NCBI GenBank assembly: GCA_035477015.1
Contig: DATILB010000372.1
Span: 1 to 55,219 of the forward strand
DNA length: 55,219 nt
Source of the DNA: Nocardioidaceae bacterium
GTDB lineage: Bacteria > Actinomycetota > Actinomycetes > Propionibacteriales > Nocardioidaceae
Direction of reading: 5' to 3'
Within the stretch, counting starts at the first letter, position 1. Each line of letters begins with the position of its first letter. This document shows, in pieces, positions 21,504 through 49,975 of the stretch. Both the position numbers and the translations under genes were made by a program. The notes under the pieces were generated by a model. The model saw nothing but the letters and a program-made list of their open reading frames with translations, did not search any database and was not told the origin of the DNA.

Positions 21504-22085
21504 GTGACCGACGACGTGTGGCTAGTCGTCGGGCTGGGCAACCCCGGCCCTTCCTATTCGGGGCACCGGCACAACGTCGGCTATCTCGTCGCCGACGAGC
21601 TGGCGACCCGACTCGACGGCACCTTCCGCACGCACAAGTCGCGGATGGCCGAGGTCGTCGAGGGACGGCTGGGCATCGGCGGGCCGCGCATCGTCCTGGC
21701 TCGGACGCGTGGCTACATGAACGAGTCCGGCGGTCCGGTGTCAGCTTTGGCGAAGTTCTACAAGGTGTCCCCCGACCGAGTCATCGCGATCCATGACGAG
21801 CTCGACATCGCTTTCGACACCCTGCGGGTGAAGCTCGGTGGCGGCGACAACGGCCACAACGGGCTGCGCTCGATCCGGGCCTCCTTGGGCTCCGGTGACT
21901 TCTACCGGGTGCGCGTGGGCATCGGCCGGCCCCCGGGTCGTCAAGACCCCGCGGACTTCGTGCTCTCGAACTACTCGGCTGCCGAGCGCAAGGTGCTGAT
22001 CTTCCAGGTCGACCGCGCCGCCGATGCCGTGGAGTCCCTGGTGACCGTGGGTCTCGAGAAGACCCAGGGCGTGTTCAACTCCTAG
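21504..22085 (+). CDS. pth: Peptidyl-tRNA hydrolase
   Basis: …[21 protein letters not shown]… GTG 21504 gives the usual short N-terminus. An alternative GTG at 21453 forms a GTGA overlap with rplY. Confidence 0.9.
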
Positions 22086-23509
22086 TAGGCGCCGCGGGCG
22101 CTGAGCACGGCGCCCAGCGTCCGGCCCAGGATCGACAGGTCGCCGGTGAGGCTCCAGTTGTCGGCGTAGTAGGTGTCGAGGGCTGAGGCTTCGGCCCACG
22201 ACAGGTCCGACCGACCGCTGACCTGCCAGAGGCCAGTGATACCCGGTTTCACGACCAGGCGGCGCAAAGTGTCGGGGTCCATGGCCTCCACCTCACTCGG
22301 CAGTGAGGGACGCGGACCGACGAGGGACATGTCGCCGCGCAGCACGTTGATCAGCTGGGGCAGCTCGTCCAGTGAGGTCTTGCGCAGCAAGGCTCCGATG
22401 CGCGTGATGCGCGGATCGGCCCTCATCTTGAACAGGATGCCGTCGTACTCGTTCTGGTCGGCCAGGTCGATCTTGACCGACTCGGCGTCCTGCACCATCG
22501 TGCGCATCTTGTAGACCTTGAAGTGCCGGCCGTAGCGACCGACCCGCGTCTGGGTGAACAGCGCCTTGCCAGGAGTGTCCAGGCGTACGGCGACGCACAT
22601 GGCCACGAGCACAGGCGTCACGATCAGCAGGAGCACCGCCGCCGCGAGGCGGTCGACTGCCGCCTTGATGACCGCCGCAGTGGGGGTGGGGCGGGGAGCG
22701 CGGACGTCGTTGACGGTCGCTCCCTCCATCAGGCCCGGTGTGATCCGGTGCGGTGCGACGGAGTCCAGGATGCCCATCACGCCGAGACCCGCGCGGGTGT
22801 CCTCCAGCCGCCAGGCGAGCCGGCGGAGGTCGATGCTGGTGACGCCAGGGGATGGTGACATCACCACAAGGTCCACGTCGAAGCTCTTGACCACGGCAGG
22901 AGCGGCGCCCAGGTCGGCGACTACCGGAAGGCCCATGATCTCTGTGGGCGCCCGATCCAGGTCGGGCTCCACGAGCAGGGCTGCCACGGGCTGCACCCGC
23001 TCGCTGCGGACCCAGCGGGCCATGGCGTGAGCGATTGCCACGCGGTCTCCCACGAGCAGGACGCGCAGGGGACTCTGCAGCCTCCAGCGCAGCGCGCGGC
23101 AGAGGAGCGAGGTGGCGGCGGCAACCAGGACGGCCGTGGAGGCGGGCACGACCGCGGCCTCGGGGATGCCGAGGAAGACGACGGTGGCGGCCAGTCCGCA
23201 CAGCGGAAGCAGGACGCTCCTGGCCACCAGACGCAGCTGGTGGTGCAGGGGCGTGGTCAGACCGGTGCTGCCGTGGAAGCTCAGCACCTCCCAGACGAGC
23301 AGCGTGCCGAGGGCGATGTGGGTGAAGGAGTCGGCGCTGAGCACAGCCACCATCCCCGCGAGGGTGGCCAGCAGGAACTCGGCCTGGGAGCCCCACCGTC
23401 GACACCAGACCCGGAACGGATGCGGCTCACTGCGTCGCTCGGGAAACCGGAGTGCATCCGGCTCCATGAACGACTTGGCGACAGTGTCGCCTACCCCACT
23501 CGAAATCAT
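22082..23509 (-). CDS. Polyprenyl-phosphate glycosyl-1-phosphate transferase (WbaP/CpsE-like bacterial sugar transferase), initiating enzyme
   Basis: N-terminal TM helices and a C-terminal domain …[28 protein letters not shown]…[19 protein letters not shown]… ATG 23509 is preceded by a G-rich RBS. Confidence 0.85.
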
Positions 23510-23676
23510 GTGGACCCCCCGGTCGATGTGGTTCCCCCCGGAACCGAGTGCCTTGCGACCACCCCGTGGCGCTCTCGGCACTAAGCAAATTCTCGCGTTG
23601 CGATCTGTTCCACGCAAGTTCAAACGCCATGAACCACCCGTTCGGACTACCTGTGAGTTCGCCCACTCACGTGCTG

Positions 23677-23702
23677 GAAACCCCTTGTTTATAAGGGGTT
23701 TC
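23677..23702. promoter_or_regulatory. Locus motif copy a: perfect 10+6+10 palindrome
   Basis: GAAACCCCTT-gtttat-AAGGGGTTTC followed by GCG. It lies between the GT2 stop (23715) and the sugar-transferase start (23509). Confidence 0.5.
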
Positions 23703-23714
23703 GCGTCCAGCCCC

Positions 23715-24629
23715 TCAAATGCCCTTGCCGTGACGGTGGAGTGTCTCCATCACGCGACCAGGTCGTACGGCGCCGACGGCGACAGCGGCTGCGAGGTACG
23801 CGCGCGGCTCCCGAGCGCTGCGACGCAAGGACTGTCGTGCCCAGCGCAGACCCTCGCGCCGGTTGCCCATCGCGGCCTGTGCGAACGCGATCTGTCCGTG
23901 CACCCGGGCCGAGCCTCGAGGTGACGACTCGAACTCGGGGTAGCGCTCCAGCAGCCACGAGAGCCCGTCTGACATGGTCTCCCACCGCCGGAAGAAGAAC
24001 GACTGCTTGCCCCACCGGATCACCGTCAATGGTTGCTGCACGTTGACGATCGGATGCACCTTCGCGGTGCGCAACAGGAACTCGTAGTCCTCACCGAAGC
24101 CACCGGGCACGTCCTCGTCGACGGGGCCGATCGCCCGGTCGAGAACGCTGCGGCGCAACAGGAAGGTCGAGGGGTGCAGCTCGGTGTGCCGGTCGCGCAG
24201 CAGGTCGTCGAAGGTCACCAGGTCCAGGTCGAGGACGCGGTCGAACTCGTCGCCGTCGTACTGGACGCGGATGCCCGTCGTGCACATGCCTGCCGCCGGA
24301 GCCGCCGCGATCGCAGCCACCTGCGCCGTGATCTTGCCGGGCAGCCAGAAGTCGTCGTCGTCGCAGAACGCGACGTACGCACCCGTTGTCGCCTCGATGC
24401 CGGAGTTGCGGCCGCCCGCCAGACCCACGCTGTGGGTGTTGCGGATGACGCGCACGCTGCGGCGGTGCGCCGTCTGCTCGAGGGTGAGGTCCGGCTCGGA
24501 CTGGTCGAAGACGACGACGACCTCGATGAAGCCGAGGTAGTCCTGCTGGAGGACGGCCGAGATCGCCTCACGGACCATCTCGGGACGATCGCGGGTCGCA
24601 ATGACGACAGAGACCAACGGGTGGCTCAC
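23715..24629 (-). CDS. Family 2 glycosyltransferase
   Basis: VSVVIATRDRPEM… and the DxD motif FCDDDDFW. GTG 24629 forms a GTGA overlap with the upstream gene. Confidence 0.85.
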   Translation of the reverse strand: MSHPLVSVVIATRDRPEMVREAISAVLQQDYLGFIEVVVVFDQSEPDLTLEQTAHRRSVRVIRNTHSVGLAGGRNSGIEATTGAYVAFCDDDDFWLPGKITAQVAAIAAAPAAGMCTTGIRVQYDGDEFDRVLDLDLVTFDDLLRDRHTELHPSTFLLRRSVLDRAIGPVDEDVPGGFGEDYEFLLRTAKVHPIVNVQQPLTVIRWGKQSFFFRRWETMSDGLSWLLERYPEFESSPRGSARVHGQIAFAQAAMGNRREGLRWARQSLRRSAREPRAYLAAAVAVGAVRPGRVMETLHRHGKGI

Positions 24630-26053
24630 GATCGACTCCCCAGGTAGCCGTGCTTGCGCAGAGTCGGCCACGACAGCGCGGTGGACACGTAGCGGTGGCG
24701 CGTCGGGAGGCCGCTGCGCCAGTCATCGGGAGCCTCGAGCTGGAGCGGACCACTGTGGAAGCGCAGGGGATACCCGGCGACGGAGTGCGCCGGCGCCAGC
24801 TTGATGCGACCGTCGTGCGTCACGCGCACCGACGGTGCCTGCGGCAGGTCGTGCTCCTGCCAGACGCGCATCAGCTCGGCCTCGGGACTATCGAGGACGT
24901 CCTCGAAGCGTGTCTTCACGACGCGGACTCCTCGGTAGGGAAGTCCCCGCATCGTGACGTGGTGGCGCACCCACTGACGGGTGACGCGACTGGCGGTGCT
25001 GGGCTGCTCCTGTTGGTCCCCCACCGCACGGGCTCGGCTGTGCAGGACCCCCCGGCTGTCGCGTACGACGTGCAGGACCCGAAGGTCGATGTGCCTGTTG
25101 TGGCTCAGCGCGACCGCGGTGGGTGCGACTCGCGAGGAGTCCACCACGATGCCGGCGCCGGTGAGCTCGGCCGCGGCGTCGTAGATGCGTCGGTAGTACT
25201 CGGAGTACTCGAAGAGCAGGCGGCGCAGCTCGCTGCGCGGAGAGCGACGCGCGGTGCGGTGCAGCATCCGCTGACGGTCGACCTCCGCCTTGAGCGTGAG
25301 CACGTGGCGGACGTCGACCTTGTCCCAGCCGCCGAAGGCGCGATCGCCGACGAGGGTCCAGAACTCGCAGTCCCGGAAGTGCTCGCCGCAACCACAGGGC
25401 TCGTTGGAGAGCAGGCCGCGCTGCCAGAGGTGGGCCACCTCGCCCAGGACGACGACGTCGTCGACGCCACCGAGGATCCGCTCGAGGACGTCCGAGCCGC
25501 TGTGCTCGTCGCAGGCCAGGTAGAGCACGGTTGTCGCTCCCTCGGCCACCGGGAGTCGCCGCCCGTCGAACCTCTCCAGGAGCTGGGTCAGTCGCGTCGC
25601 AGTGTCATCCGTGGAGTGTCCGCCGTCAGTCTCGCTTCGAGTGCTGCCGAGATCGGCTACGAGCAGGTCGATCTCGTCGACCTCGGTGACGAGCTGCACC
25701 AGGCCCTTCGCTGCGGCCCACGCTGCGAAGCGCATCTGGTGGTCGTCGACGTGCTCGTTGTGCTCCGGGTTGCGCGCCAGGGTGATGGGGCGGTGTCCCT
25801 GTTTGCGTACGTCCATGATGGTGCCGGGCCCACCATGAGTAATGACGACGTCGGACTCGGCGGCCAGCGTGCCGAGGTCGTCGGGTGAGAAGAAGGCAAC
25901 GCCTGTGGCGACTGCGGGACCGGCGGTATGGCCGTGCTGGATGACGACCGTGTCGGCCGGGTTGGCGGACTGATGAGCATCTGCCCAACGCACGAGCCGA
26001 TCGAACCGATGGTGGTCGGTGCCGACGAGGATCGTGATCCGCCGGCCGCTCAT
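24626..26053 (-). CDS. Fusion protein: Alg13-like (Glyco_tran_28_C / PssE-Cps14G-type) glycosyltransferase subunit plus a C-terminal sulfotransferase-like domain
   Basis: The N-terminal ~150 aa reads ITILVGTDHHRFDRL…VVITHGGPGTIMD…DDHQMRFA. The C-terminal ~310 aa is collinear with the stand-alone sulfotransferase at 26671..27588 (VLGEVAHLWQRG…CGCGEHFRDCEFW…VVRDSRGV…). Confidence 0.8.
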   Translation of the reverse strand: MSGRRITILVGTDHHRFDRLVRWADAHQSANPADTVVIQHGHTAGPAVATGVAFFSPDDLGTLAAESDVVITHGGPGTIMDVRKQGHRPITLARNPEHNEHVDDHQMRFAAWAAAKGLVQLVTEVDEIDLLVADLGSTRSETDGGHSTDDTATRLTQLLERFDGRRLPVAEGATTVLYLACDEHSGSDVLERILGGVDDVVVLGEVAHLWQRGLLSNEPCGCGEHFRDCEFWTLVGDRAFGGWDKVDVRHVLTLKAEVDRQRMLHRTARRSPRSELRRLLFEYSEYYRRIYDAAAELTGAGIVVDSSRVAPTAVALSHNRHIDLRVLHVVRDSRGVLHSRARAVGDQQEQPSTASRVTRQWVRHHVTMRGLPYRGVRVVKTRFEDVLDSPEAELMRVWQEHDLPQAPSVRVTHDGRIKLAPAHSVAGYPLRFHSGPLQLEAPDDWRSGLPTRHRYVSTALSWPTLRKHGYLGSRS

Positions 26054-26547
26054 AGCAGCGGCCCGACTTCAATCATGTTGTTGTACAGCGCCCTCTGCTC
26101 GGGCCACTGCGCAAGCATCAGGTCGGTGAACGGTCTGACCAGCTTGCCGGTCAGGGTCGGTGTCTCGATGCGGTCGAAGACCTCGATGTAGACGGTACGG
26201 ACACCCTGCGAGCGAGCCAGCGCGAAGTAGGGCAGGGCGACTGCAGCTCCGGTCGAGATGACGACCGTCGGCTGGAAGCGCCGCATCGTCACGCGCGCCT
26301 GGACGCTGTTGCGCATCAGGTTCCGCGCGTTGCGCGTCGTCGGGTGGTAGGCCCAGGTCACGTCCTTCTCGCCGCCGAGCAGCGCGATGGCATCGGGCGT
26401 GTCGAACGTCACCCAGGCATGCGGCTTGTCCTGCCACCACGGCCGCAGCCGCATCAGCTGGGCAAGGTGCCCCCCACTCGAGCCCACCAACAGAATCCGG
26501 TCATCAAGCTTGACCGACGCCTGAACGGACGTTGAATCCTGGCGCAT
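26050..26547 (-). CDS. Alg14-like (PssD/Cps14F-type) glycosyltransferase membrane-anchor subunit
   Basis: ILLVGSSGGHLAQLMRL…VVISTGAAVALPYF… ATGA overlap with the Alg13-like gene. Confidence 0.8.
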   Translation of the reverse strand: MRQDSTSVQASVKLDDRILLVGSSGGHLAQLMRLRPWWQDKPHAWVTFDTPDAIALLGGEKDVTWAYHPTTRNARNLMRNSVQARVTMRRFQPTVVISTGAAVALPYFALARSQGVRTVYIEVFDRIETPTLTGKLVRPFTDLMLAQWPEQRALYNNMIEVGPLL

Positions 26548-26593: not shown

Positions 26594-26619
26594 GTCTTCC
26601 CTTATTCTAAAGGGGTTTC
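26594..26619. promoter_or_regulatory. Locus motif copy b; contains TAGAAT (-10-like) facing the Alg14-like operon
   Basis: GTCTTCCCTT-attcta-AAGGGGTTTC followed by GCG. On the minus strand it reads CGCGAAACCCCTTTAGAATAAGGGAAG, 57 nt upstream of ATG 26547. Confidence 0.5.
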
Positions 26620-26670
26620 GCGACTCTCAGAACCAATCTGGACCGGGCTGAGCGTGCGCTGAGTCGTAGT

Positions 26671-27588
26671 TCACAGGTAGCGGTAGGCCTTGAGCGCGGG
26701 GTAGCTGAGCGCGGTGACGAGGCGTCGCTGGCGCGGCTCCATCTCGTCCTTCCACGCGGTGTCGGGACGCAACGTGGTCGATCCGGTGCGGAACCGCATC
26801 GGGTTGCCGGCGACCGAGTGTGTGGTGTTCAGGACGACCGTGCGCTCGTCGACGAGCGGCAGCTCCGCCGTACCGGGGAGCTCGAGCGCGCTCCACGAGT
26901 CCCGCACCGTCCCTGCCACGTCATCGAGGAGGTCCTCATAGCGCACTCGATGGACGGGCACGCCTCGGTAGCTCAGCGCACCCATGGACAGGTTGTGGCT
27001 GAGCCACAGCTGGGTGCTCGCACGTGCCCCGAGCCGCGGCATCGCCTCCTCGCCGCCCGTCTCGGGCCGTGGCACGTGCTTGGACCAGCTGTACGCCACA
27101 CCGCGGCTGTCGCGCACGATGTGCAGGATGCGCAGGTCGATCCCCTCGTGGTGGCTGAGCGCCAACGCTGTCGGGGCGACCTTGCTGGAGTCCACTACCA
27201 CGCTTGCACCGGTGACCCTGCGTGCTGAGTCGTAGATGCGACGGAAGTAGTCGGCGTACTCGTGGCTTTGTTCCTTGATCCGACGAGACGGTCGTCGCCG
27301 TGTCGTCGCCGGCATGCGCCGCTGCCGGTCCACCGCGTCCTTCAGGGCTCGGATCCGCTCGATGTCGACCGATGCCCACCCGTTGAAGGCGTCCGTCCCG
27401 ACGGCGCTCCAGAACTCGCAGTCGTGGAAGGGCTGCCCGCAGGCGCACAGCTCGTTGAGGACGACGCCGCGCTCCCAGAGGTGGGCAACCTCGCCCAGGA
27501 CCGTGACCTGGGGCAGTTCTGCGAGGAGACACTCGAGCAGCGTCGAACCGCTGCGACCTGATCCCCCGATGTAGAGCGTCGTGTCCAC
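26671..27588 (-). CDS. PAPS-dependent sulfotransferase family protein
   Basis: 5'-PSB-like loop IGGSGRSGSTLL, 3'-PB-like IVRDSRGVAYS, and Cys motif CACGQPFHDCEFW. Confidence 0.8.
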   Translation of the reverse strand: MDTTLYIGGSGRSGSTLLECLLAELPQVTVLGEVAHLWERGVVLNELCACGQPFHDCEFWSAVGTDAFNGWASVDIERIRALKDAVDRQRRMPATTRRRPSRRIKEQSHEYADYFRRIYDSARRVTGASVVVDSSKVAPTALALSHHEGIDLRILHIVRDSRGVAYSWSKHVPRPETGGEEAMPRLGARASTQLWLSHNLSMGALSYRGVPVHRVRYEDLLDDVAGTVRDSWSALELPGTAELPLVDERTVVLNTTHSVAGNPMRFRTGSTTLRPDTAWKDEMEPRQRRLVTALSYPALKAYRYL

Positions 27589-29383: not shown

Positions 29384-29417
29384 GTCTGCGTCCTGAGAGT
29401 GTGCGAAGCCAGTGTTG

Positions 29418-29443
29418 GCGTCCCGTTATTCTAGAGTTTCGCG
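29418..29443. promoter_or_regulatory. Locus motif copy c in the Wzy/PCP divergent gap; TAGAAT faces the Wzy-like gene
   Basis: GCGTCCCGTTATTCTAGAGTTTCGCG. On the minus strand it reads CGCGAAACTCTAGAATAACGGGAC, 45 nt upstream of ATG 29383. Confidence 0.45.
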
Positions 29444-29486
29444 CCTTTGGTGCGGATTGAGCTGTCCACGCGGCCAGGGGGTCCCA

Positions 29487-31492: not shown

Positions 31493-31548
31493 GGTCTGGT
31501 GACCTCCGGTCCCGGTGTACGGCGCTTCTCGGGTCGGCCGAGGGTCGC

Positions 31549-42801: not shown

Positions 42802-42827
42802 ACATTCCCTTACAGAGCAGGCGATTC
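42802..42827. promoter_or_regulatory. Locus motif copy h (degenerate), just after the stop of the second large gene
   Basis: ACATTCCCTT-acagagc-AGGCGATTC, followed by TCC as in copy e. Confidence 0.3.
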
Positions 42828-42942
42828 TCCTCTGAGCGCTCGTCCGCACGGCTGAATGAAATGACCCGTTCGGCACCGCGAAAGCCCCCCGAAAGGATGG
42901 CCGTCATGACGGTCGACTCCTACTAGATTGACCCGCTCGGAG

Positions 42943-42967: not shown

Positions 42968-42972
42968 TCGCC

Positions 42973-44637: not shown

Positions 44638-45466
44638 CGAGGTAAGCGTTTGCGGCGCGCCCGTTGAACTGGTCGGTCGCCGACTCGATCGGGCCACCAT
44701 TGCGGGCGAGCTTCCCGCCCACCGACAGCGGGACGCCAGCCTCGGGCATCACGATGGCGCCGGTCCGTCCAGGCGCCGTGGTCTCGGTGGTGGTGACGCT
44801 GCCGTCGGGAGCGAACTCGGTCAGTGTCAGCGTGACCGCGTCCTCGGTGCGGTGACACTCCACGCGGTACCACCAGCCCGGCTGGATGAAGTCGGCGGAG
44901 CGCACGGCGACGACGCCCTCGGCGCCACGCACCAGGCAGCTCGGCCGGTCGCGGTCGATCTCGACCTTGAACATGACCGGGTCGCTGGACAGCCCTCTCT
45001 GGACGAGGTTGTCGCCGTTGTCGGCAGCTGCGCCCGAGGACTCCTTGTCGATCACGAAGTCGGCGCCGAAGCGGAAGTCCGCGGTCCCGGGGTTCAGCTG
45101 GTCCCGAGTGCCGGCGTTGACGACGCGGATGATCGCGCGGGGGTAGTACTCCGTGCGGACGAAGCCGGGGAAGTCAATCGCGGGTGAGGCGCCTGCCTCG
45201 GGGCTGCCCTTCACCGTCCGCAGCGCGCCGTCGTGCAGCCGAGCCGTGTCGATGGTGACCCCGGCGGAGCCGGCCTGCTCGAGGGAGCCGTCGGGTCCGA
45301 TCCGCAGCAGGAAGGTCGCGTTCTTGGGGATGCCGGTCGCGGTCGGCGTACGCGATGAAGAGGTGGTGGGGGAGCTCGGCCCCTCGGAGTCGAGATAGAC
45401 GCTCTCCGAGCAGCCGGTCGCCGTGAGGCCGAGGAGCAGCGCGGCCCAGTGCAGACGGCCGGTCAT
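44624..45466 (-). CDS. Lipoprotein with a LamG/ConA-like jelly-roll domain
   Basis: MTGRLHWAALLLGLTATGCSES (lipobox-like TATGC), an S/T/P linker, and a beta-rich domain ending …LSVGGKLARNG…QFNGRAANAYLV. ATGA overlap with the upstream hydrolase gene. Confidence 0.65.
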   Translation of the reverse strand: MTGRLHWAALLLGLTATGCSESVYLDSEGPSSPTTSSSRTPTATGIPKNATFLLRIGPDGSLEQAGSAGVTIDTARLHDGALRTVKGSPEAGASPAIDFPGFVRTEYYPRAIIRVVNAGTRDQLNPGTADFRFGADFVIDKESSGAAADNGDNLVQRGLSSDPVMFKVEIDRDRPSCLVRGAEGVVAVRSADFIQPGWWYRVECHRTEDAVTLTLTEFAPDGSVTTTETTAPGRTGAIVMPEAGVPLSVGGKLARNGGPIESATDQFNGRAANAYLVIAR

Positions 45467-46407
45467 GACTGCACCCACGATCGCCAGGCCTGGATGGAGG
45501 GCGTGTCGTCGAGCCGGTAGTGCCCGTCCCTGGTCGAGTCGAAGTACGTCACGAAGAGTGCCTGTTTGCGGGTCAGGTACCTGCCCACCCGCTGCAGCCA
45601 CTCGGCACGGGCGGTGCCGTCATCTCCGGCGATCAGGACCGAGCCGGTCTCCGCGATGCCGAACGGCTTGTTGGTCTCGCGGGATGCCTGGACGACGGGG
45701 CCGTAGATCGAGCGCGGCGACTCGTAGGACGTCGGCGCCTCGCTGTTGTACGGGTCCCAGCCCAGGACCGAGATGTAGCGCGGACCGGGGTAGTAGTCGC
45801 GCCAGTCACGGCCGGAGGCCGCATCTGCAGTCCAGCCGGTGAGGATCAAGGTCGGGTGGAGGTTCCGGTGGCACGCGTGCGTGGCCAGGTCGACCAGCCT
45901 GCGGAACGCCTGGCGGTACTGCTTTGCGGTGAACGCTCCGGCCAGGATCTGCGGCTCCGGCTCATGGAGGTAGCTCCACAGCACCTTGCCTTCGAGTGGT
46001 GCCTCTCGGAAGAAGCGCACGATCGCGGCGTCGTACGTGCCGGCGAGCACCTCGGCCGGGGGCATCCGGAACGACGTCACGACCATCCGCTTGCCGAGTG
46101 CTGCGCTGCGGTTGCTCCAGGCGTTGGCCGGGGGCAGTGCCGGGTCGAAGATGCGCACCGCGCGGAGGCGTCCGAACTTGCGCTGCTCGGCGGCCAGGGA
46201 CTCGGTGAACGAGAGCGACACCGTGGACAGCGAGGAGCCGAAGCGGGTCCAGTCGTCGCCCTCGACAAGAGGGGCGCGCCGACAGCCCTCGCGCGCGGTG
46301 ACCTGCGGGGCTTCCTCGGCGCCACTCGGCGTGATCGCGGTGAGACCCACGACCGCCGCGAGCATGACACCGCTGGTCAACCAGTGGCGGAGAGTGGGCC
46401 GGATCAT
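45463..46407 (-). CDS. Secreted TIM-barrel (clan GH-A, GH26-like) glycoside hydrolase
   Basis: Signal MIRPTLRHWLTSGVMLAAVVGLTAITPSGA. Candidate acid/base …LWSYLHEPE… and nucleophile …PFGIAETG… The family assignment rests on motif resemblance only. Confidence 0.55.
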   Translation of the reverse strand: MIRPTLRHWLTSGVMLAAVVGLTAITPSGAEEAPQVTAREGCRRAPLVEGDDWTRFGSSLSTVSLSFTESLAAEQRKFGRLRAVRIFDPALPPANAWSNRSAALGKRMVVTSFRMPPAEVLAGTYDAAIVRFFREAPLEGKVLWSYLHEPEPQILAGAFTAKQYRQAFRRLVDLATHACHRNLHPTLILTGWTADAASGRDWRDYYPGPRYISVLGWDPYNSEAPTSYESPRSIYGPVVQASRETNKPFGIAETGSVLIAGDDGTARAEWLQRVGRYLTRKQALFVTYFDSTRDGHYRLDDTPSIQAWRSWVQS

Positions 46408-46440
46408 CGTGCGAGTGCTCCAAGCGGTCGGGCAGGACGA

Positions 46441-46465
46441 GAATCCCTTGTATTACAAGGGATTC
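46441..46465. promoter_or_regulatory. Locus motif copy e: perfect 12+1+12 palindrome between the two hydrolase genes
   Basis: GAATCCCTTGTA-t-TACAAGGGATTC, 34 nt upstream of ATG 46407 and 37 nt downstream of the stop at 46502. Confidence 0.5.
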
Positions 46466-46501
46466 TCCCCGGTCCGATCGTCCGGGCGCAAACCTGTCCG
46501 A

Positions 46502-47698
46502 CTACTGGAGCGAGGCAGAGAAGGCAGTCACAGCCTGGGGGAATGCCCCCGTCGTGATCAGGTGATTGTCCTCACGCGCGCGGTTGAAGAAGACGCCCCA
46601 GGCGATGTCGAGGGTCGAGAACTTGCTTCGGAGGTTCGAGTAGAACGTCGCCAGCGCGGCGTCCCCGAACGACGTCGGCATCCCGAACTCACCGAGCCCG
46701 ATGGGCTGGCCGTCGTACCAGGCCTGGGTGCGGATCCAGGTCATGTCACCGGTGGCGATCGTGGCCATCGTGTCCGATCCGGTGTTGGCGTATGGGTCGA
46801 AGAGGAACATGGCCGGATCGGTCGTGAACTGGTCAGCGACCGTGCCCTCGAAGACTCGGTCGTAGCCGACGATCCAGTAGGTGGTGTGGATGTTGGCGGA
46901 GGCGGCCTTCGCCTTGGCGAAGAAGATCGACAGGGCCTTTCCGTACGTCGCCGGGTTCGCCGACTCGCCGGTGACCTGGCCGGTCCGCACCTTGACCTTC
47001 ATCTCGTGGTCGATCGTCGCGTAGACCGGCACCGTCGGGTCGACCAGCGCGAGCTGCTTGAGCTGGGCGACGTACTTGTCGAGCCAGGCCAGCGCGGTGG
47101 CATTGCCTGCCACGATGTCGGCCAGGAGCTGCGTGCCCTTCGTCGTGATGGTGATGTTCGGGCTGGTCCCGCGCCTGATCCGCGCGGTCTCGTAGGCCAG
47201 GTTGATGTTCTGGTAGTCCTGGTAGTACGTCGACGCCACGTCTGGATACGCGCCGAAGTCGGCCAGGGTCTTCTCGTCGGGGCTCTCCGAGGGACCGCCG
47301 TTGTAGACGCCCAGCCCGGGCTCCGGCGGAGGCGGTGGGGTCACGGTCGGACTCGGCGTGGGGGTCGGCGTTGGCGTCGGTGTGGGTGTTGGGGTCTGCG
47401 TAGGCGTGGGGGTGGGCGTCGGCGTGGCGGTGTGGGTGGGTGACGGCTTGGTTGGCTTCGGCTTGCCATTGCCCCACCCGAGCACCGCGAGGACGGCGTC
47501 GACGACCTCGTTCTGCGTGACGGCTCGCTCGGCCTTCTGTGCGCGAGGTGGTTTCGGATCATCACCCTGGTCACTGCCACGGGCGAGTGCGGCGCTGGTC
47601 GCGCCGGCGCCGCCGAGCACGATGAGGCCCGACGTCACAGCTGCGGCCAGGCCGGTACGCCGACGAGGACGGTTAATGCGGTTGCCAGACAGATTCAT
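46502..47698 (-). CDS. Secreted (Tat-like signal) GH-A/GH26-like glycoside hydrolase with a Pro/Thr linker
   Basis: …NRPRRRTGLAAAVTSGL… twin-Arg signal, a (TP)n linker, and a catalytic-domain candidate with …ATIDHEM… and …IGLGEFG… ATG 47698 follows GGGAGAG. Confidence 0.55.
   Translation of the reverse strand: MNLSGNRINRPRRRTGLAAAVTSGLIVLGGAGATSAALARGSDQGDDPKPPRAQKAERAVTQNEVVDAVLAVLGWGNGKPKPTKPSPTHTATPTPTPTPTQTPTPTPTPTPTPTPSPTVTPPPPPEPGLGVYNGGPSESPDEKTLADFGAYPDVASTYYQDYQNINLAYETARIRRGTSPNITITTKGTQLLADIVAGNATALAWLDKYVAQLKQLALVDPTVPVYATIDHEMKVKVRTGQVTGESANPATYGKALSIFFAKAKAASANIHTTYWIVGYDRVFEGTVADQFTTDPAMFLFDPYANTGSDTMATIATGDMTWIRTQAWYDGQPIGLGEFGMPTSFGDAALATFYSNLRSKFSTLDIAWGVFFNRAREDNHLITTGAFPQAVTAFSASLQ
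47321..47461 (-). repeat. Low-complexity coding repeat encoding a Pro/Thr linker
   Basis: Translates to KPKPTKPSPTHTATPTPTPTPTQTPTPTPTPTPTPTPSPTVTPPPPPEP. The DNA is a degenerate GGTGTGGG/GGCGTCGG-type periodicity. Confidence 0.8.
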
Positions 47699-47840
47699 GA
47701 GGAGCTCTCCCAAACGTCCTATGAATTGCGCGATGCGGGTGGGGGGTCCCCGCGACAGCGAGCCTAGTGATGAATCACCCCAAGCCGCACCTATTCCTCA
47801 AATCGGATAAGTCGCCGTTTCGGTAGGGGTCCGGCGGCCT

Positions 47841-47866
47841 GATTCACCTATGAAAGAGTTCTCGCG
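47841..47866. promoter_or_regulatory. Possible degenerate locus motif copy j abutting the cysQ start
   Basis: GATTCACCTATGAAAGAGTTCTCGCG resembles copy c (…GTTATTCTAGAGTTTCGCG). It may simply contain the cysQ RBS. Confidence 0.25.
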
Positions 47867-48648
47867 TGACGAAGACTCCTGACCTCCGACCTGGCGCCGA
47901 CGACCACGAGCTCGCTGCCTGGCTGGCGACCGTTGCCGGGCAGACGTTGCTCGAGGTGCGGGAGCAGGGGCTGGAGGGCAAGGCGCTCAAGGACGCCGGC
48001 GACCTGGCGTCGCACGAGCTGCTGATGGAGCTCCTGGCCGAGCATCGTCCCGACGACGCGGTCCTCTCCGAGGAGGGCAAGGACGACAAGATCCGGCTCA
48101 CCTCCTCGCGGGTGTGGATCATCGACCCGCTCGACGGCACGCGTGAGTTCTCGGAGCCGCCGCGTGACGACTGGGCCGTCCACGTCGCGCTCTGGCAGGA
48201 CGGTGCGCTGGTCGCCGGAGCGGTTGCTCAGCCCGGGCTCGACCAGACCTTCCACACCGGCAACCCGCCGGTCGTGCCCCCGCGCACCTCGGCCCGCCCC
48301 CGGATCGCCGTGTCGCGGACGCGTCCGCCGGCCTTCGTTGAGGCGCTTGCCCAGGAGATCGACGCCGAGCTGGTCCCGATGGGATCCGCCGGGGCGAAGG
48401 TCATCTCGGTTGCGCGCGACATCACCGACGCCTACGTGCACGCCGGTGGTCAGTACGAGTGGGACTCCGCGGCTCCGGTGGTCGTCGCCGCTGCCGCCGG
48501 TCTGTTCACCAGTCGCGCCGACGGTGCCGAGCTGAAGTACAACCAGGAGGACGTGCTGCTGCCCGACCTGCTGGTGTGCCGCCCCGAGCTGGCCGAGCAG
48601 ATCACGTCGTTCGTTCAGCGCTACTGGGCCGAGAACCCGCCCAGCTGA
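47866..48648 (+). CDS. cysQ: 3'(2'),5'-bisphosphate nucleotidase (PAP phosphatase), inositol-monophosphatase superfamily
   Basis: …VLSEEG…, WIIDPLDGTREF (CysQ-type), and …WDSAAPVVVAAAAG…. Confidence 0.8.
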   Translation: MTKTPDLRPGADDHELAAWLATVAGQTLLEVREQGLEGKALKDAGDLASHELLMELLAEHRPDDAVLSEEGKDDKIRLTSSRVWIIDPLDGTREFSEPPRDDWAVHVALWQDGALVAGAVAQPGLDQTFHTGNPPVVPPRTSARPRIAVSRTRPPAFVEALAQEIDAELVPMGSAGAKVISVARDITDAYVHAGGQYEWDSAAPVVVAAAAGLFTSRADGAELKYNQEDVLLPDLLVCRPELAEQITSFVQRYWAENPPS

Positions 48649-48655
48649 GGAACCG

Positions 48656-49975
48656 GTGTCAGCCCGGGCGCGTCGAATGGGCATGCTGCCTCGACGCGAC
48701 CTGCTGCGCCTGATGGGCGTGACGCCCCTCGCGGTACCCCTGTTGTCCGCGTGTGGTGCCTCGGAGTCTCCCGGGGGCGGCAAGACGTCCCTCCAGCTCG
48801 TGAAGTCCGACGTCGCGCGCTCGGCGGGAGATCCTGGTGCCGCGTCGGCGGCAGCGGCTTCGATCGCTGCGCTCGCGGGCAGCCTGTACGGCGAGCTGGG
48901 CGCCAAGCCCGGCAACGTCGTCTACTCCCCGTACTCAATCTCTGTGGCGCTCGCCATGACGATGAACGGTGCCGTCGGCAAGACGGCTGCGGAGATGAGT
49001 CGAGTGCTCGTGGTGGAGGATCTCGAGGCCTTCAACGGTGGCCTCAATGCCTTGACCCAACAGCTCGAGTCACTGGCCGGGAAACTGAACCGGTACGAGG
49101 GCGACAAGGCGGAGATCCTCCTCGACACGGCGAACTCCCTGTGGGGACAGGCAGGTGTCAGCTGGGAGCGACCGTTCCTGGACACCCTCGCTCGCGACTT
49201 CGGGACCGGGATGCGCACCGTCGACTACGCCCAAGCAGCAGAGGACGCCCGTCGGCTCATCAACGAGTGGACCGCCGAGCAGACCCACGACAAGATCCCC
49301 GAGATCCTGCCGCCGGGCATCCTCGATGCACTGACCAGGCTGGTGCTGGTCAACGCGATCTATCTCAAGGCGCCCTGGCAGGCGCCGTTCGAGAAGGGAC
49401 TCACGGAGGATGGGCCTTTCCACCTGCGCGGTGGAAGCGTCGTTGACGTACCGATGATGGCCGGGGCCGAGGCGAGCTTCGCGTGGAAGCAGGGCGACGA
49501 CTGGGAAGCGATCCAGATTCCGTACGCCGGTAGTGAGCTCGCGATGACGGTGGTGCTCCCCGACGACATCACCTCGGTCGGCGGTGATCTCTCGGCACTC
49601 ATCGACTGGACCCCCACCGAGTCGGTGGGGCTTCGGTTGCCAAAGTGGAAGTTCCGGCTTCAGTCGCGGCTGAACAAAGCCTTGGACAGGTTGGGCATGC
49701 CCACCGCGTTCACCGACGCGGCGGACTTCAGTGGGATGGCGCCCGAAGGCAGCGAGTGGTTCATCAGTGCGGTCTTGCACGAGGCCTTCATCGCCGTGGA
49801 CGAGGAAGGCACGGAAGCCGCGGCGGCGACAGCCGTCGTCATCAGCGACAGCGCAGCTCACATCGAGCCCCGCGTCGTCAGGGTCGACCGGCCCTTTGTC
49901 TTCGTCATCCACGACCTCGAGCACAACACGCCGCTGTTCGTCGGTCGGGTCGACGACCCGTCACAGGAGAGCTAG
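48656..49975 (+). CDS. Serpin-family protease inhibitor, predicted lipoprotein
   Basis: …RRDLLRLMGVTPLAVPLLSACG (Tat-like signal plus lipobox LSAC). YSPYSISVALAMTMNGA. Hinge/RCL VDEEGTEAAAATAVV. C-terminal DRPFVFVIHD…PLFVGRV. GTG 48656 follows GAGGAA, 7 nt after cysQ. Confidence 0.85.
   Translation: MSARARRMGMLPRRDLLRLMGVTPLAVPLLSACGASESPGGGKTSLQLVKSDVARSAGDPGAASAAAASIAALAGSLYGELGAKPGNVVYSPYSISVALAMTMNGAVGKTAAEMSRVLVVEDLEAFNGGLNALTQQLESLAGKLNRYEGDKAEILLDTANSLWGQAGVSWERPFLDTLARDFGTGMRTVDYAQAAEDARRLINEWTAEQTHDKIPEILPPGILDALTRLVLVNAIYLKAPWQAPFEKGLTEDGPFHLRGGSVVDVPMMAGAEASFAWKQGDDWEAIQIPYAGSELAMTVVLPDDITSVGGDLSALIDWTPTESVGLRLPKWKFRLQSRLNKALDRLGMPTAFTDAADFSGMAPEGSEWFISAVLHEAFIAVDEEGTEAAAATAVVISDSAAHIEPRVVRVDRPFVFVIHDLEHNTPLFVGRVDDPSQES

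What the first reader, a model, noticed from the sequence alone, without database searches (positions are those of the whole stretch)
22082..49975. System-level hypothesis: a 28-kb extracellular-matrix module
The accessory block lies between the core genes pth and the NHEJ/lipid genes. It combines:
- synthesis and export of a decorated (sulfate, acetyl, possibly phosphate) glycan
- three secreted multi-lectin proteins
- two secreted glycanase candidates and a LamG lipoprotein
- PAP detoxification
- a protease inhibitor

A common intergenic sequence element ties them together. As an ensemble this resembles a self-contained matrix or biofilm system, analogous in logic to animal sulfated-glycan/lectin matrices. 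I do not recognise it as a described system.
Basis: inference. Interest (0 to 1): 0.7.

Follow-up and report, generated by a model that had tools for sequence, protein, structure and literature searches.

The report
Sulfated polysaccharide locus with secreted partners
This is a Nocardioides-type gene cluster that builds, decorates (sulfate, acyl, probably phosphate) and exports a surface or extracellular polysaccharide, joined to genes for secreted proteins that probably bind or trim it. It sits in a swap-prone site between two housekeeping genes and resembles clusters already described, so it is an interesting variant and not an unknown kind of system.

Summary
It includes a Wzx/Wzy polysaccharide pathway with two intact sulfotransferases, two acyltransferases and a kinase-fold enzyme. 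There are also three secreted beta-propeller/PKD/jelly-roll proteins, a GH26 glycanase, a lipoprotein, CysQ and a serpin. A shared intergenic palindrome (CCCTT-N6/7-AAGGG around a -10-like hexamer) is also real, is confined to the block, and is conserved at orthologous sites in two close relatives.

Comparison with 88 related loci moves the right border. The accessory insert is about 25.8 kb (22086-47865), between core genes pth and cysQ. CysQ lies directly after pth in 34 of 75 relatives, and the serpin follows cysQ in relatives that have no insert, so neither is cargo.

The pth|cysQ junction is a hypervariable polysaccharide site. The synthesis genes and secreted-protein genes do recur together in relatives at 40-55% identity, always around a Wzx, sulfotransferase and kinase-like trio.

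Domain content and gene order match the wps-1 cluster of Actinoplanes missouriensis (2026). The overall logic matches Vibrio vps/rbm. "Lectin" and "LamG" remain unproven.

Verdict: partly supported, new variant of a known kind, interest about 0.4.

The parts
21453..22085 (+). pth (peptidyl-tRNA hydrolase). Conserved left flank; the insert starts at its stop codon.
   Evidence: Pfam Pept_tRNA_hydro 3.7e-57. 80 Nocardioidaceae loci were retrieved with it.
22082..23509 (-). Priming polyprenyl-phosphate sugar-phosphate transferase. The ORF runs to 23623; the likely start is the ATG at 23509.
   Evidence: Bac_transf 1.1e-62. Four TM-like segments. N-terminus read.
23715..24671 (-). GT2 glycosyltransferase.
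   Evidence: Glycos_transf_2 2.1e-26.
24626..26053 (-). Alg13/PssE-like glycosyltransferase catalytic half, fused to a sulfotransferase-like domain whose 5'-PAPS loop is degenerate.
   Evidence: Glyco_tran_28_C and Sulfotransfer_3. PssE 1.1e-18. The fused domain is 45% identical to the stand-alone sulfotransferase, but GGSGRSGST is replaced by ACDEHSGSD.
26050..26547 (-). Alg14-like partner of the split glycosyltransferase.
   Evidence: Alg14 1.6e-9.
26671..27588 (-). Sulfotransferase of the Sulfotransfer_3 type, with an intact GSGRSGST loop.
27640..28158 (+). Hexapeptide-repeat acyl(acetyl)transferase 1.
   Evidence: Hexapep 7e-11.
28112..29383 (-). Wzy-type polymerase.
   Evidence: Wzy_C 32.0 bits, cut-off 31.7. 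At least 9 TM-like segments.
29412..30995 (+). Wzz/PCP-like co-polymerase. It has two TM segments and a C-terminal domain without a Walker A motif.
   Evidence: Wzz 22.1 bits, below the cut-off of 25.5. Topology and motif check.
30941..31492 (-). Hexapeptide-repeat acyltransferase 2. The ORF runs to 31576; the likely start is the second ATG. This gene is absent in L082.
   Evidence: Hexapep 5.4e-14..
31591..33159 (+). Wzx flippase.
   Evidence: Polysacc_synt 5.8e-14. 13 TM-like segments.
33143..34045 (+). Sulfotransferase of the Sulfotransfer_1 type, with an intact GAKRGGTT loop. Part of the invariant trio.
   Evidence: Present in 8 of 8 related loci at 60-83% identity.
34003..35247 (-). Kinase-fold (APH-like) protein of 414 aa. 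Part of the invariant trio; domain-class counterpart of WpsI.
   Evidence: No Pfam or NCBIfam hit. HGDxxxxN and DWE are invariant. Model pLDDT 94.8. Best fold matches are APH(2'')-Ia, LxmK, homoserine kinase and FN3K. The family has 4119 representative clusters.
35465..39532 (+). Secreted 1355-aa protein: propeller-like N-terminal region, LamG_3, two PKD domains and a C-terminal jelly roll.
   Evidence: Pfam. Signal peptide. Jelly-roll copy mapped. Homologues in 8 of 8 related loci.
39573..42794 (+). Secreted 1073-aa protein: DUF5122 propeller, three jelly-roll copies and two PKD domains. Absent in L082.
42973..44637 (+). Secreted 554-aa protein: beta-propeller plus a C-terminal jelly roll.
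   Evidence: Model pLDDT 90.5. Only generic propeller fold matches. At least 1850 homologues.
44624..45472 (-). Conserved lipoprotein of 282 aa with a lipobox (TATGC). Its fold is unassigned.
   Evidence: Present in 8 of 8 related loci. LamG hits are only sub-threshold. hhalign was negative.
45463..46407 (-). Secreted GH26-family glycanase.
   Evidence: Matches CtLic26A at E 2.9e-6, with LHE and AE(T)G aligned to the catalytic Glu positions. Present in 6 of 8 related loci.
46502..47713 (-). Secreted protein with a Pro/Thr linker and a C-terminal domain of unknown fold.
   Evidence: No family or PDB match. Present only in L081, L082 and L085.
47866..48648 (+). CysQ-type 3'(2'),5'-bisphosphate nucleotidase. 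Conserved right flank, not cargo.
   Evidence: Inositol_P 7.7e-31. CysQ model 2.3e-29. Adjacent to pth in 34 of 75 relatives.
48656..49975 (+). Serpin lipoprotein. A flank gene, not part of the block.
   Evidence: Serpin 4.2e-94. Follows cysQ in relatives without an insert, L054 and L018. Present in 1 of 8 related kinase-like-gene loci (L081).
23677..23705 (.). Motif site A: GAAACCCCTT-GTTTAT-AAGGGGTTTC-GCG, upstream of the priming transferase gene.
26599..26622 (.). Motif site B: CCCTT-ATTCTA-AAGGGGTTTCGCG, about 60 nt upstream of the Alg14 start. On the gene strand the spacer reads TAGAAT.
29420..29443 (.). Motif site C: GTCCCG-TTATTCTA-GAG-TTTCGCG, between the divergent Wzy and Wzz genes. 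Conserved in L082.
31546..31574 (.). Motif site D: CGCGTTTC-GCCTT-AGAATA-AAGGG-AATTC, between acyltransferase 2 and Wzx. Conserved in L082.
35288..35318 (.). Motif site F: GAGATTTTCCCA-CGTGGT-AAGGGGATTCTC, between the kinase-like gene and the 1355-aa protein gene. In L081 and L082 the spacer reads TAAAAT or TGAAAT.
42803..42830 (.). Motif site G: a degenerate copy (CCCTTACAGAGCAGGCGATTCTCC) upstream of the 554-aa protein gene. It is clearer in L081 and L082 (CCCTTCTATACAAGG). A further half-site lies at 42956-42965.
46439..46467 (.). Motif site E: GAGAATCCCTTG-TATTA-CAAGGGATTCTC, about 46 nt upstream of the GH26 start. Conserved in L081 and L082.
35382..35464 (+). Highly conserved, structured leader in front of the 1355-aa protein gene. 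An upstream C-run can pair with the G-run next to the start codon.
   Evidence: No Rfam match. The covariance model finds it only in the window, L081 and L082.

Best explanation
The window comes from a member of the Nocardioidaceae. The region 22086-47865 (about 25.8 kb) is the strain-variable surface or extracellular polysaccharide locus. It occupies a hypervariable site between the core genes pth and cysQ.

**Proposed pathway (inferred from the families involved)**
1. A repeat unit is built on a polyprenyl-phosphate carrier by the priming transferase, the split Alg13/Alg14-type glycosyltransferase and the GT2.
2. At the cytoplasmic face the unit is decorated by two PAPS-dependent sulfotransferases, two hexapeptide acyltransferases and a kinase-fold enzyme.
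3. Wzx flips the unit across the membrane.
4. Wzy polymerises it, under the control of a Wzz/PCP-like protein.

**Secreted partners**
- A set of secreted proteins is inherited with the pathway: large beta-propeller/PKD/jelly-roll proteins, a conserved lipoprotein, a GH26 glycanase and one protein of unknown fold.
- They most likely bind, organise or trim the polymer outside the cell, as matrix proteins and a glycanase do in other EPS systems.

**Regulation**
- In this lineage the promoter regions of both the synthesis genes and the secreted-protein genes carry the same palindrome, wrapped around a -10-like hexamer.
- The most likely reading is an operator for one dimeric regulator encoded elsewhere.

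**Flank genes**
- CysQ, which removes the PAP by-product, and the serpin are neighbouring core or semi-core genes, not cargo.

**Shown versus inferred**
- Shown: gene families, borders, co-occurrence, motif enrichment and motif conservation.
- Inferred: sulfation of the polymer, the kinase substrate, glycan binding by the secreted proteins, and operator function.
For: **Gene families and catalytic motifs**
- Pfam and NCBIfam assignments.
- PAPS-loop motifs in the sulfotransferases.
- Kinase fold and motifs.
- GH26 catalytic Glu residues.
- Membrane topology of the transferase, Wzx, Wzy and Wzz-like proteins.

**Insert versus core**
- All 80 pth loci are Nocardioidaceae.
- pth and cysQ are adjacent in 34 loci, 15 carry a 2-8 kb insert, and 26 have no cysQ within 10 kb, many with other polysaccharide genes.
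- L086 shows pth, then the block, then cysQ, LigD-pol and mfd.
- GC and GC3 are uniform, and no integrase gene is present.

**Ensemble**
- L081 and L082 keep the same order at 65-90% identity.
- L083, L084, L085, L086, L087 and L088, at 40-69% identity, keep Wzx, sulfotransferase, kinase-like protein, a large secreted protein and the lipoprotein in 8 of 8 loci, and GH26 in 6 of 8, despite rearrangement.

**Motif**
-.
- Phylogenetic footprints where the flanking intergenic DNA has diverged.
- Five of the seven main sites (A-G) lie 30-70 nt upstream of a start codon (coordinates).

**Precedent**
- In Actinoplanes wps-1, mutants in the GT genes wpsA/wpsC, sulfotransferase wpsH, the kinase-like gene, Wzx, Wzy and Wzz all give the same matrix defect (squashed sporangia); the wpsB sulfotransferase mutant forms normal-looking sporangia with reduced spore release; the GH26 mutant is partial.
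Against: - No chemistry was done. Sulfate, acyl or phosphate on the polymer is not shown, and no PAPS-synthesis gene lies within the 55 kb.
- The secreted proteins gave only generic propeller fold matches and weak jelly-roll hits, so glycan binding is unproven.
- All co-occurring examples lie at the same chromosomal site in one family, so shared descent explains part of the linkage.
- Propeller paralogues occur at this site without synthesis genes (L043).
- The motif is absent from L083-L088. No regulator gene lies in the block.
- No canonical -35/-10 pair was found. Genome-wide occurrence of the motif could not be examined.
- No LCP-type ligase gene is present, so the fate of the polymer (free, capsule or wall-bound) is open.
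Confidence: 0.6

Rival explanations
1. All 28 kb (22082-49975), including CysQ and the serpin, form one self-contained accessory matrix module bounded by pth and LigD-pol.
For: All the listed genes are present and contiguous. CysQ would plausibly serve sulfation. L081 keeps the order block, cysQ, serpin.
Against: - CysQ (70-83% identity) is adjacent to pth in 34 of 75 relatives that lack any insert.
- The serpin follows cysQ in relatives without an insert (L054, L018) and is absent from 7 of 8 related kinase-like-gene loci.
- No motif copy lies at cysQ or the serpin.
Confidence: 0.07
2. Independent cassettes. The pth|cysQ site simply collects unrelated accessory genes. The polysaccharide pathway and the secreted propeller/GH26 proteins have separate jobs, for example adhesion to or breakdown of foreign plant or microbial glycans.
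For: - The site is hypervariable.
- L043 has propeller paralogues only, and L029 has a short mixed insert.
- The propeller family is very large and widespread (at least 1850 homologues).
- GH26 enzymes are usually mannanases or lichenases that act on foreign glycans.
Against: - The large secreted protein and the lipoprotein accompany the Wzx, sulfotransferase and kinase-like trio in 8 of 8 loci despite rearrangement.
- The same motif marks both sets of genes.
- No sugar transporter, catabolic enzyme or regulator gene lies in the block.
- A GH26 gene sits inside the Actinoplanes wps-1 cluster, and its deletion affects the matrix.
Confidence: 0.2
3. The product is a cell-bound, strain-variable capsule or wall-linked anionic glycopolymer whose main role is surface variation under phage or predator pressure. 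It is not a biofilm matrix.
For: A conserved chromosomal site with swapped gene content is the hallmark of capsule and O-antigen loci. The pathway is of the Wzx/Wzy type.
Against: - No LCP-family ligase gene lies in the block.
- The conserved secreted multi-domain proteins fit a matrix better.
- The closest described cluster builds a sporangium matrix.
- This reading overlaps the best explanation and is not excluded.
Confidence: 0.3
4. The shared element is not an operator. It could be a lineage-specific repetitive palindrome, or an RNA hairpin acting as a terminator or processing site.
For: - Sites A and E are perfect 10-12 bp palindromes between co-directional genes.
- Similar palindromes flank an M1 aminopeptidase gene in L064.
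- No canonical sigma-70-type promoter was found.
Against: - Sites B, C, D and F are poor hairpins but keep the arms and an AT-rich TAnnnT-like spacer.
- Sites C and D lie between divergent genes, where a terminator makes no sense.
- Orthologous sites are conserved while the flanking DNA diverges.
- No T-run follows the sites, and the terminator scan did not pick them up.
Confidence: 0.15

Closest known systems
Actinoplanes missouriensis wps-1 cluster (AMIS_7280-7380, WpsA-K; PMC13390465, 2026)
   Same: - An actinomycete Wzx/Wzy cluster with a GT2, two sulfotransferases of different families, a GH26, Wzx, Wzy and Wzz.
- It also has a kinase-like protein, and the gene order Wzx, sulfotransferase, kinase-like is the same as here.
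- It is needed for an extracellular (sporangium) matrix.
   Different: - wps-1 has a GT26, a methyltransferase and a DUF4262 protein. It has no acyltransferases, no split Alg13/14 glycosyltransferase and no linked large secreted propeller/PKD proteins or lipoprotein.
- A PAPS-pathway gene lies next to it. Here none lies within the 55 kb, and only CysQ is nearby.
Synechocystis xss cluster for the sulfated EPS synechan (PMC8205485)
   Same: A Wzx/Wzy-type EPS cluster that carries sulfotransferases. Sulfation of the product has been shown chemically (title and abstract).
   Different: It is from a cyanobacterium and has its own regulators in the cluster. No kinase-like enzyme, GH26 or propeller proteins are known to me for it. 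Details beyond the abstract were not read here.
Vibrio cholerae vps-1 / rbm / vps-2 biofilm matrix cluster (PMC11451748, PMC10102183)
   Same: One contiguous region combines a Wzx/Wzy EPS pathway (VpsE, VpsF), secreted matrix proteins that include beta-propeller adhesins (RbmC, Bap1), and an EPS-degrading enzyme (RbmB).
   Different: - No homology was shown. The fold search returned only generic WD40-type propellers.
- There is no beta-prism or FnIII matrix protein here.
- RbmB is a beta-helix lyase-like protein, not a GH26.
- VPS is not sulfated (my own knowledge).
Variable capsule and O-antigen loci at fixed chromosomal sites, e.g. pneumococcal cps between dexB and aliA, and E. coli O-antigen between galF and gnd (my own knowledge)
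   Same: Conserved flanking genes with swapped polysaccharide gene content among relatives, as seen at pth|cysQ.
   Different: Those loci rarely carry large secreted binding proteins. The flanking genes and the host phylum also differ.
Sinorhizobium succinoglycan exo cluster with the ExoK glycanase (my own knowledge)
   Same: An EPS cluster that encodes a secreted endoglycanase to trim its own polymer. ExoK is a GH16 enzyme, like the two GH16 genes that replace GH26 in L086.
   Different: It involves no sulfation, no kinase-like enzyme and no propeller proteins.

Membership tests
Wzx/Wzy-dependent polysaccharide biosynthesis locus | Priming polyprenyl-phosphate sugar-phosphate transferase | tested here: met
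   Bac_transf 1.1e-62. Four TM-like segments.
Wzx/Wzy-dependent polysaccharide biosynthesis locus | Wzx flippase | tested here: met
   Polysacc_synt 52.6 bits, cut-off 28.2. 13 TM-like segments.
Wzx/Wzy-dependent polysaccharide biosynthesis locus | Wzy polymerase | tested here: met
   Wzy_C 32.0 bits, just above the cut-off of 31.7. At least 9 TM-like segments. Homologues are called Wzy_C in L082-L084 and L086, and weakly in L088.
Wzx/Wzy-dependent polysaccharide biosynthesis locus | Chain-length/co-polymerase (PCP, Wzz) protein | tested here: inconclusive
   Wzz 22.1 bits, below the cut-off of 25.5. The two-TM topology fits, but the C-terminal domain has no Walker A motif.
wps-1-type sulfated EPS cluster of actinomycetes | Two sulfotransferases of different families | tested here: met
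   A Sulfotransfer_3 type (26671-27588) and a Sulfotransfer_1 type (33143-34045), both with intact 5'-PAPS loops.
wps-1-type sulfated EPS cluster of actinomycetes | Kinase-like protein beside Wzx and a sulfotransferase | tested here: met
   Kinase fold and motifs. The order Wzx, sulfotransferase, kinase-like matches WpsG-H-I.
wps-1-type sulfated EPS cluster of actinomycetes | GH26 glycanase in the cluster | tested here: met
   WpsE is a GH26.
wps-1-type sulfated EPS cluster of actinomycetes | Sequence orthology to WpsA-K | not tested
Sampling 20 distant members of the kinase-like family gave Spirillospora, Actinomadura and Nocardioidaceae, but no Actinoplanes.
wps-1-type sulfated EPS cluster of actinomycetes | Sulfate actually present on the polymer | not testable with these tools
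   This needs chemistry. It is also unverified for wps-1 itself.
wps-1-type sulfated EPS cluster of actinomycetes | Adjacent PAPS-synthesis gene (AMIS_7390 type) | tested here: not met
   No sulfate adenylyltransferase or APS kinase gene lies anywhere in the 55 kb. Only the PAP phosphatase CysQ is nearby.
EPS plus matrix-protein cluster of the Vibrio vps/rbm type | EPS genes, secreted structural proteins and a glycanase in one contiguous, recurring block | tested here: met
   The combination recurs in 8 related loci.
EPS plus matrix-protein cluster of the Vibrio vps/rbm type | Common transcriptional control | tested here: inconclusive
   A shared palindrome lies at promoter regions of both gene sets. 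The regulator is unknown, there are no expression data, and the motif is absent in L083-L088.
EPS plus matrix-protein cluster of the Vibrio vps/rbm type | Homology of the secreted proteins to RbmA, RbmC or Bap1 | tested here: not met
   The best 50 PDB fold matches of the 554-aa protein are generic WD40-type propellers, with no Bap1 or RbmC. There are no beta-prism or RbmA-type domains.
Mobile genomic island | Integrase, flanking tRNA or direct repeats, and atypical composition | tested here: not met
   No integrase or transposase family was found. GC is 0.67-0.69 throughout and GC3 matches the flanks. No flanking repeat pair was found. The tRNA-Gln lies 4 kb upstream, outside the insert.
Variable surface-polysaccharide locus at a fixed chromosomal site | Conserved flanking genes with different polysaccharide gene sets among relatives | tested here: met
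   pth and cysQ flank either nothing (34 loci), a 2-8 kb insert (15 loci) or more than 10 kb (26 loci), with differing gene sets. L086 shows both flanks in one locus.

The most novel reading that the evidence does not exclude
The block is a dedicated, co-regulated extracellular-matrix system of Gram-positive soil actinobacteria.
- The secreted beta-propeller/PKD proteins would use their repeated jelly-roll domains to recognise the cell's own sulfated, and kinase-phosphorylated, polysaccharide specifically and cross-link it. This would be a bacterial counterpart of sulfated-glycan/lectin matrices.
- A single unlinked regulator would switch the whole set through the -10-embedded palindrome.
- The uncharacterised kinase-fold family (more than 4000 sequence clusters, no Pfam model) would be a new class of glycan-modifying kinase.
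Probability: 0.2. Interest if true: 0.65.

Novelty: new variant of a known kind. Interest (0 to 1): 0.4.

Why it matters
- Sulfated polysaccharides are regarded as rare in bacteria outside cyanobacteria (PMC13390465). Only one actinomycete cluster has been proposed, and only in 2026.
- This locus and its relatives show that a related pathway is common in Nocardioidaceae, a widespread soil family. It sits at one hypervariable chromosomal site and is always built around a trio of Wzx, sulfotransferase and kinase-like protein.
- That provides three things:
  1. a simple genomic marker for finding such loci;
  2. a conserved, uncharacterised kinase-fold family to test as a glycan-modifying enzyme;
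  3. a set of secreted proteins and a candidate operator that make the question [quoted passage not shown] experimentally approachable.
- It is not a new kind of system.

Tried and rejected
**Look-ups and searches that gave nothing useful**
- Exact look-up of the window's 1355-aa protein: not on record. Look-ups of P0151, P0164 and P0165 also failed.
- Profile search with alignment A1 through the word-indexed database reached no further than the single sequence did.
- Two samples of distant kinase-like family members for an Actinoplanes WpsI homologue found none.
- Rfam searches:
  - The whole-window search at gathering threshold returned nothing. It even missed the real tRNA, which a targeted search found.
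  - The leader search returned nothing.
  - The search of 22000-50500 at E <= 0.1 returned nothing.
- The sigma-70 consensus scan found no promoter, and no terminator at the motif sites.
- The metagenome scan for site D (CCTTAGAATNAAGGGNATTC) returned 8 hits. All were in 30-48% GC contigs with no related genes, so they are chance matches.
- The search for an equivalent recurrent palindrome in L083-L088 found none.

**Protein annotations that could not be supported**
- The fold search of the 554-aa protein returned only generic propellers.
- The 403-aa protein showed no similarity to GH26 or to PDB entries. The DHE and GEFG motifs I noticed are only a hint.
- Testing the lipoprotein as LamG gave sub-threshold Pfam hits and a negative hhalign result.

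**Hypotheses rejected**
- The covariance model of the leader matched nothing beyond the three close relatives.
- A mobile-island origin was rejected: no integrase, no composition shift and no flanking repeats.

Full report
**What is there**

The window has 67-70% GC throughout. I called genes by third-position GC and named them with Pfam and NCBIfam.

Upstream lies a typical actinobacterial core run:
- rsmI, tatD, rpf-like, ksgA and ispE
- an ABC-F protein, a TetR regulator and a desaturase
- tRNA-Gln
- glmU, prs, rplY and pth

From the pth stop codon onward the genes are, in order:
- priming sugar-phosphate transferase (-)
- GT2 (-)
- an Alg13/PssE-like glycosyltransferase fused to a sulfotransferase-like domain (-)
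- Alg14-like (-)
- sulfotransferase (-)
- hexapeptide acyltransferase (+)
- Wzy (-)
- Wzz-like (+)
- second acyltransferase (-)
- Wzx (+)
- second sulfotransferase (+)
- a 414-aa protein with no family (-)
- three signal-peptide proteins of 1355, 1073 and 554 aa (+)
- a lipoprotein (-)
- a GH26-like protein (-)
- a secreted Pro/Thr-linker protein (-)
- CysQ (+)
- a serpin lipoprotein (+)
- a broken alpha/beta-hydrolase gene
- LigD primase-polymerase (-)

**Borders: insert or core**

I used pth as a query against one genome per species. It returned 80 loci, almost all titled Nocardioides, Marmoricola or Nocardioidaceae or untitled Actinomycetota MAGs (L080 is titled Sphingomonas), with at most 81% identity. 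The window therefore comes from a Nocardioidaceae member with no same-species genome in the collection. tblastn of all window proteins against these loci gave a clear picture.

- A CysQ orthologue (70-83% identity) starts within 1.5 kb of pth in 34 of 75 informative loci.
- 15 loci carry a 2-8 kb insert between pth and cysQ.
- 26 loci have no cysQ within the 10 kb fetched. Many of these show other polysaccharide genes there.
- In L015, L039, L045, L049 and L068 the order is pth, cysQ, LigD-pol within 1-3 kb.
- L086 shows both flanks in one view: pth, block, cysQ, LigD-pol, mfd.
- The serpin follows cysQ in relatives with no insert, L054 and L018.

The accessory DNA is therefore 22086-47865, about 25.8 kb. 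CysQ and the serpin are flank genes. Composition is uniform and there is no integrase, tRNA border or flanking repeat. This is a hypervariable polysaccharide site of the capsule/O-antigen kind, not a mobile island.

**Do the sub-blocks travel together?**

Two close relatives keep the same order from Wzy through the secreted proteins to cysQ at 65-90% identity. They are L081, a Nocardioidaceae MAG, and L082, from a sequencing-run assembly. L082 lacks the 1073-aa protein and the second acyltransferase.

The 414-aa protein has few close homologues (77), so I used it as a marker. I read six further contexts:
- L083, from the complete genome of N. dongxiaopingii
- L084
- L085
- L086
- L087
- L088

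The presence table is:

| Gene | Related loci with a homologue |
|---|---|
| Wzx | 8 of 8 where covered |
| Sulfotransfer_1-type sulfotransferase | 8 of 8 |
| 414-aa kinase-like protein | 8 of 8 |
| Homologue of the large secreted protein | 8 of 8 |
| Lipoprotein | 8 of 8 |
| GH26 | 6 of 8 (L086 has two GH16 genes instead) |
| 403-aa protein | 3 of 8 |
| CysQ | 7 of 8 |
| Serpin | 1 of 8 |

Identities are 40-69% and the gene order is rearranged. That argues for retained linkage of the synthesis and secreted-protein genes.

Against a strict "module", all examples sit at the same chromosomal site in one family. In addition, L043 carries three propeller paralogues between pth and cysQ with no synthesis genes, and L029 carries a short mixed insert.

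**The shared intergenic element**

Reading the intergenic DNA shows a palindrome with arms CCCTT/AAGGG, often extended to GA(A/T)(A/T)(C/T)CCCTT and AAGGG(G/A)(A/T)TTC. The arms are 6-7 nt apart around an AT-rich spacer. On the strand of the downstream gene the spacer reads like an actinobacterial -10 hexamer (TAGAAT, TATAAA, TAATAC).

- Sites lie at 23677, 26599, 29420, 31546, 35288, 42803 and 46439, with a half-site at 42956.
- The inverted repeat with at most 1 mismatch gives 6 overlapping matches, 5 of them at 4 block sites and 1 at position 696 outside the block, against 1.1 expected; 0 of 300 shuffles reach 6.
- The half-site has 7 hits in the window, and 6 lie in the block's intergenic DNA. 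That DNA is under 5% of the block.
- TTATTCTANAG with at most 2 mismatches gives 7 hits against 2.05 expected, and the three best are sites B, C and D.
- Five of the seven main sites (A-G) lie 30-70 nt upstream of a start codon, and two lie between divergent genes.
- In L081 and L082 the element is kept at the orthologous positions while the surrounding intergenic DNA has diverged.
- No copy lies outside the insert, in particular none at cysQ or the serpin.
- The element is absent from L083-L088.
- Similar palindromes with GC-rich spacers flank an M1 aminopeptidase gene in L064.
- No regulator gene lies in the block, and the consensus promoter scan found nothing.

I read the element as an operator overlapping the -10 region, bound by an unlinked dimeric regulator. 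That is an inference. Genome-wide specificity could not be tested.

**The individual proteins**

- *Sulfotransferases.* Both stand-alone enzymes keep the 5'-PAPS loop (GSGRSGST and GAKRGGTT). The fused domain is 45% identical to the first, but its loop reads ACDEHSGSD, so it is probably inactive.
- *The 414-aa protein.*
  - It models with pLDDT 94.8.
  - It matches aminoglycoside phosphotransferases, LxmK, homoserine kinase and FN3K.
  - HGDxxxxN and DWE are invariant in 39 homologues.
  - An exhaustive profile search finds 4119 sequence clusters (789 at E <= 1e-30), including Spirillospora and Actinomadura, all unnamed.
- *The 554-aa protein.* It models with pLDDT 90.5 as a 7-8-bladed propeller plus a beta-sandwich. 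Fold matches are generic WD40-type propellers.
- *The C-terminal jelly-roll domain.* It occurs five times in the three proteins. It gives only weak hits: a beta-sandwich region of Streptomyces rhamnosidase 3w5m (E 7e-5), BetaGal_ABD2 and the PL4 CBM-like domain. The fold is carbohydrate-binding-like, but "lectin" is not shown.
- *GH26.* It aligns to lichenase CtLic26A with both catalytic Glu positions kept.
- *The lipoprotein.* LamG hits are sub-threshold only, and the profile-profile test was negative.
- *The 403-aa protein.* It has no detectable relatives of known function.
- *The Wzz-like protein.* It has PCP topology but no Walker A motif.

**How it most likely works**

- Steps that follow from established knowledge of these families:
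  1. A repeat unit is assembled on a polyprenyl phosphate carrier.
  2. It is sulfated, acylated and probably phosphorylated in the cytoplasm.
  3. It is flipped by Wzx.
  4. It is polymerised by Wzy with Wzz-type control.
- Inferred steps:
  - The secreted propeller/PKD/jelly-roll proteins and the lipoprotein bind or organise the polymer.
  - GH26 trims the polymer.
  - One regulator coordinates the genes through the palindrome.
- PAP from sulfation would be cleared by the neighbouring core CysQ.
- No PAPS-synthesis gene and no LCP ligase gene lies in the window. The sulfate supply and the polymer's final attachment are therefore open.

**Comparison with what is known**

- *Actinoplanes missouriensis wps-1* (PMC13390465) is the closest described cluster.
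  - It has a GT2, two sulfotransferases of different families, a GH26, Wzx, a kinase-like protein, Wzy and Wzz, with the same order Wzx, sulfotransferase, kinase-like.
  - Mutants in most genes, including the kinase-like one, lose normal sporangium matrix.
  - Sulfation is still unverified there.
  - I could not test sequence orthology.
- *Synechocystis xss/synechan* is the chemically proven sulfated EPS cluster (PMC8205485).
- *Vibrio cholerae vps-1/rbm/vps-2* has the design of EPS genes, secreted matrix proteins (including propeller adhesins) and a polymer-degrading enzyme in one region. I found no homology to the Rbm proteins.
- The fixed-site, swapped-content behaviour is that of capsule and O-antigen loci (my own knowledge).

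**Novelty and score**

This is not a new kind of system. The following features are new relative to the descriptions I could read:
- the conserved linkage of a wps-1-like sulfation pathway with large secreted propeller/PKD/jelly-roll proteins and a lipoprotein;
- its placement in a pth|cysQ hypervariable site across Nocardioidaceae;
- the lineage-specific -10-embedded palindrome;
- the size of the unnamed kinase-fold family.

I rate it a new variant of a known kind, with interest 0.4.

Noticed in passing
window 35382-35464 (+); L081 2395-2493; L082 5638-5736: An ~80-nt leader just upstream of the 1355-aa secreted-protein gene is almost identical in three relatives, while the neighbouring intergenic DNA diverges. 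It folds into a three-helix structure in which an upstream C-run pairs with the G-run next to the start codon. There is no Rfam match and no covariation (only 3 sequences), and a covariance model finds it nowhere else in 1.6 Mb of related loci. It is a candidate cis-regulatory RNA.
   Followed up: partly
window 24626-26053 (-): The Alg13/PssE-like glycosyltransferase is fused to a full-length paralogue of the neighbouring sulfotransferase (45% identity). The PAPS-binding loop GGSGRSGST is replaced by ACDEHSGSD, so this may be a pseudo-enzyme or scaffold domain. Homologues in L083, L085 and L088 are also longer than a plain Alg13.
   Followed up: partly
window 34003-35247 (-) and its family: The kinase-fold protein belongs to a large family with no Pfam or NCBIfam model. 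The family has 4119 clusters at 50% identity with E <= 1e-3, including Spirillospora and Actinomadura. Every member with a name is called 'hypothetical protein'.
   Followed up: partly
window 49964-50433 (-): An alpha/beta-hydrolase pseudogene. It matches residues 1-83 and 142-215 of the intact 215-aa gene that follows the serpin in L081. The two matches are in different frames and the middle is missing.
   Followed up: yes
window 17905-17983 (+) and 17819-17845: The tRNA-Gln (79-80 nt, unusually long) was missed by the whole-window Rfam gathering scan but scores 40 bits in a targeted scan. Its 5' half (ATCCCCGGTTGGTCTGCCGG) is duplicated about 86 nt upstream.
   Followed up: partly
window 50430-51722 (-): LigD primase-polymerase lies on the strand opposite to pth and cysQ, whereas in L015 and L039 it is co-oriented with them, so there has been a local inversion. 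The listed 430-aa ORF is about 110 codons longer than the 312-320-aa homologues and overlaps the next gene, so the true start is probably internal.
   Followed up: no
L064 6516-6550 and 9078-9106: Palindromes with the same half-site (AAGGGGTTTC / AAGGGGATTC), but with 7-nt GC-rich spacers, flank an M1 aminopeptidase gene in another Nocardioidaceae MAG. The half-site may therefore belong to a wider regulator family or repeat class.
   Followed up: partly
window 20487-20664; compare L002-L027: prs and rplY are adjacent in the window (178 nt apart). In most relatives 3-4 kb of extra genes lie between them, which makes this a second variable spot in the conserved run.
   Followed up: no
L043 10888-17283: Nocardioides sp. 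Root140 carries three tandem paralogues of the propeller protein, plus a homologue of the window's 271-aa secreted protein (51392-52207), between pth and cysQ. No polysaccharide-synthesis genes lie in that interval.
   Followed up: partly
window 26548-26575, 35440-35464, 47733-47753: Runs of 6-8 G lie directly upstream of start codons, and small hairpins carry G-rich loops (e.g. GCGGG-TGGGGGGT-CCCGC, conserved in L081 and L082). This may be an unusual ribosome-binding or structural feature of the lineage.
   Followed up: no
L086 3589-7197: In a related locus, two secreted GH16 proteins occupy the place taken by GH26 and the propeller protein in the window. This suggests that the glycanase is swapped to match the polymer type.
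   Followed up: no
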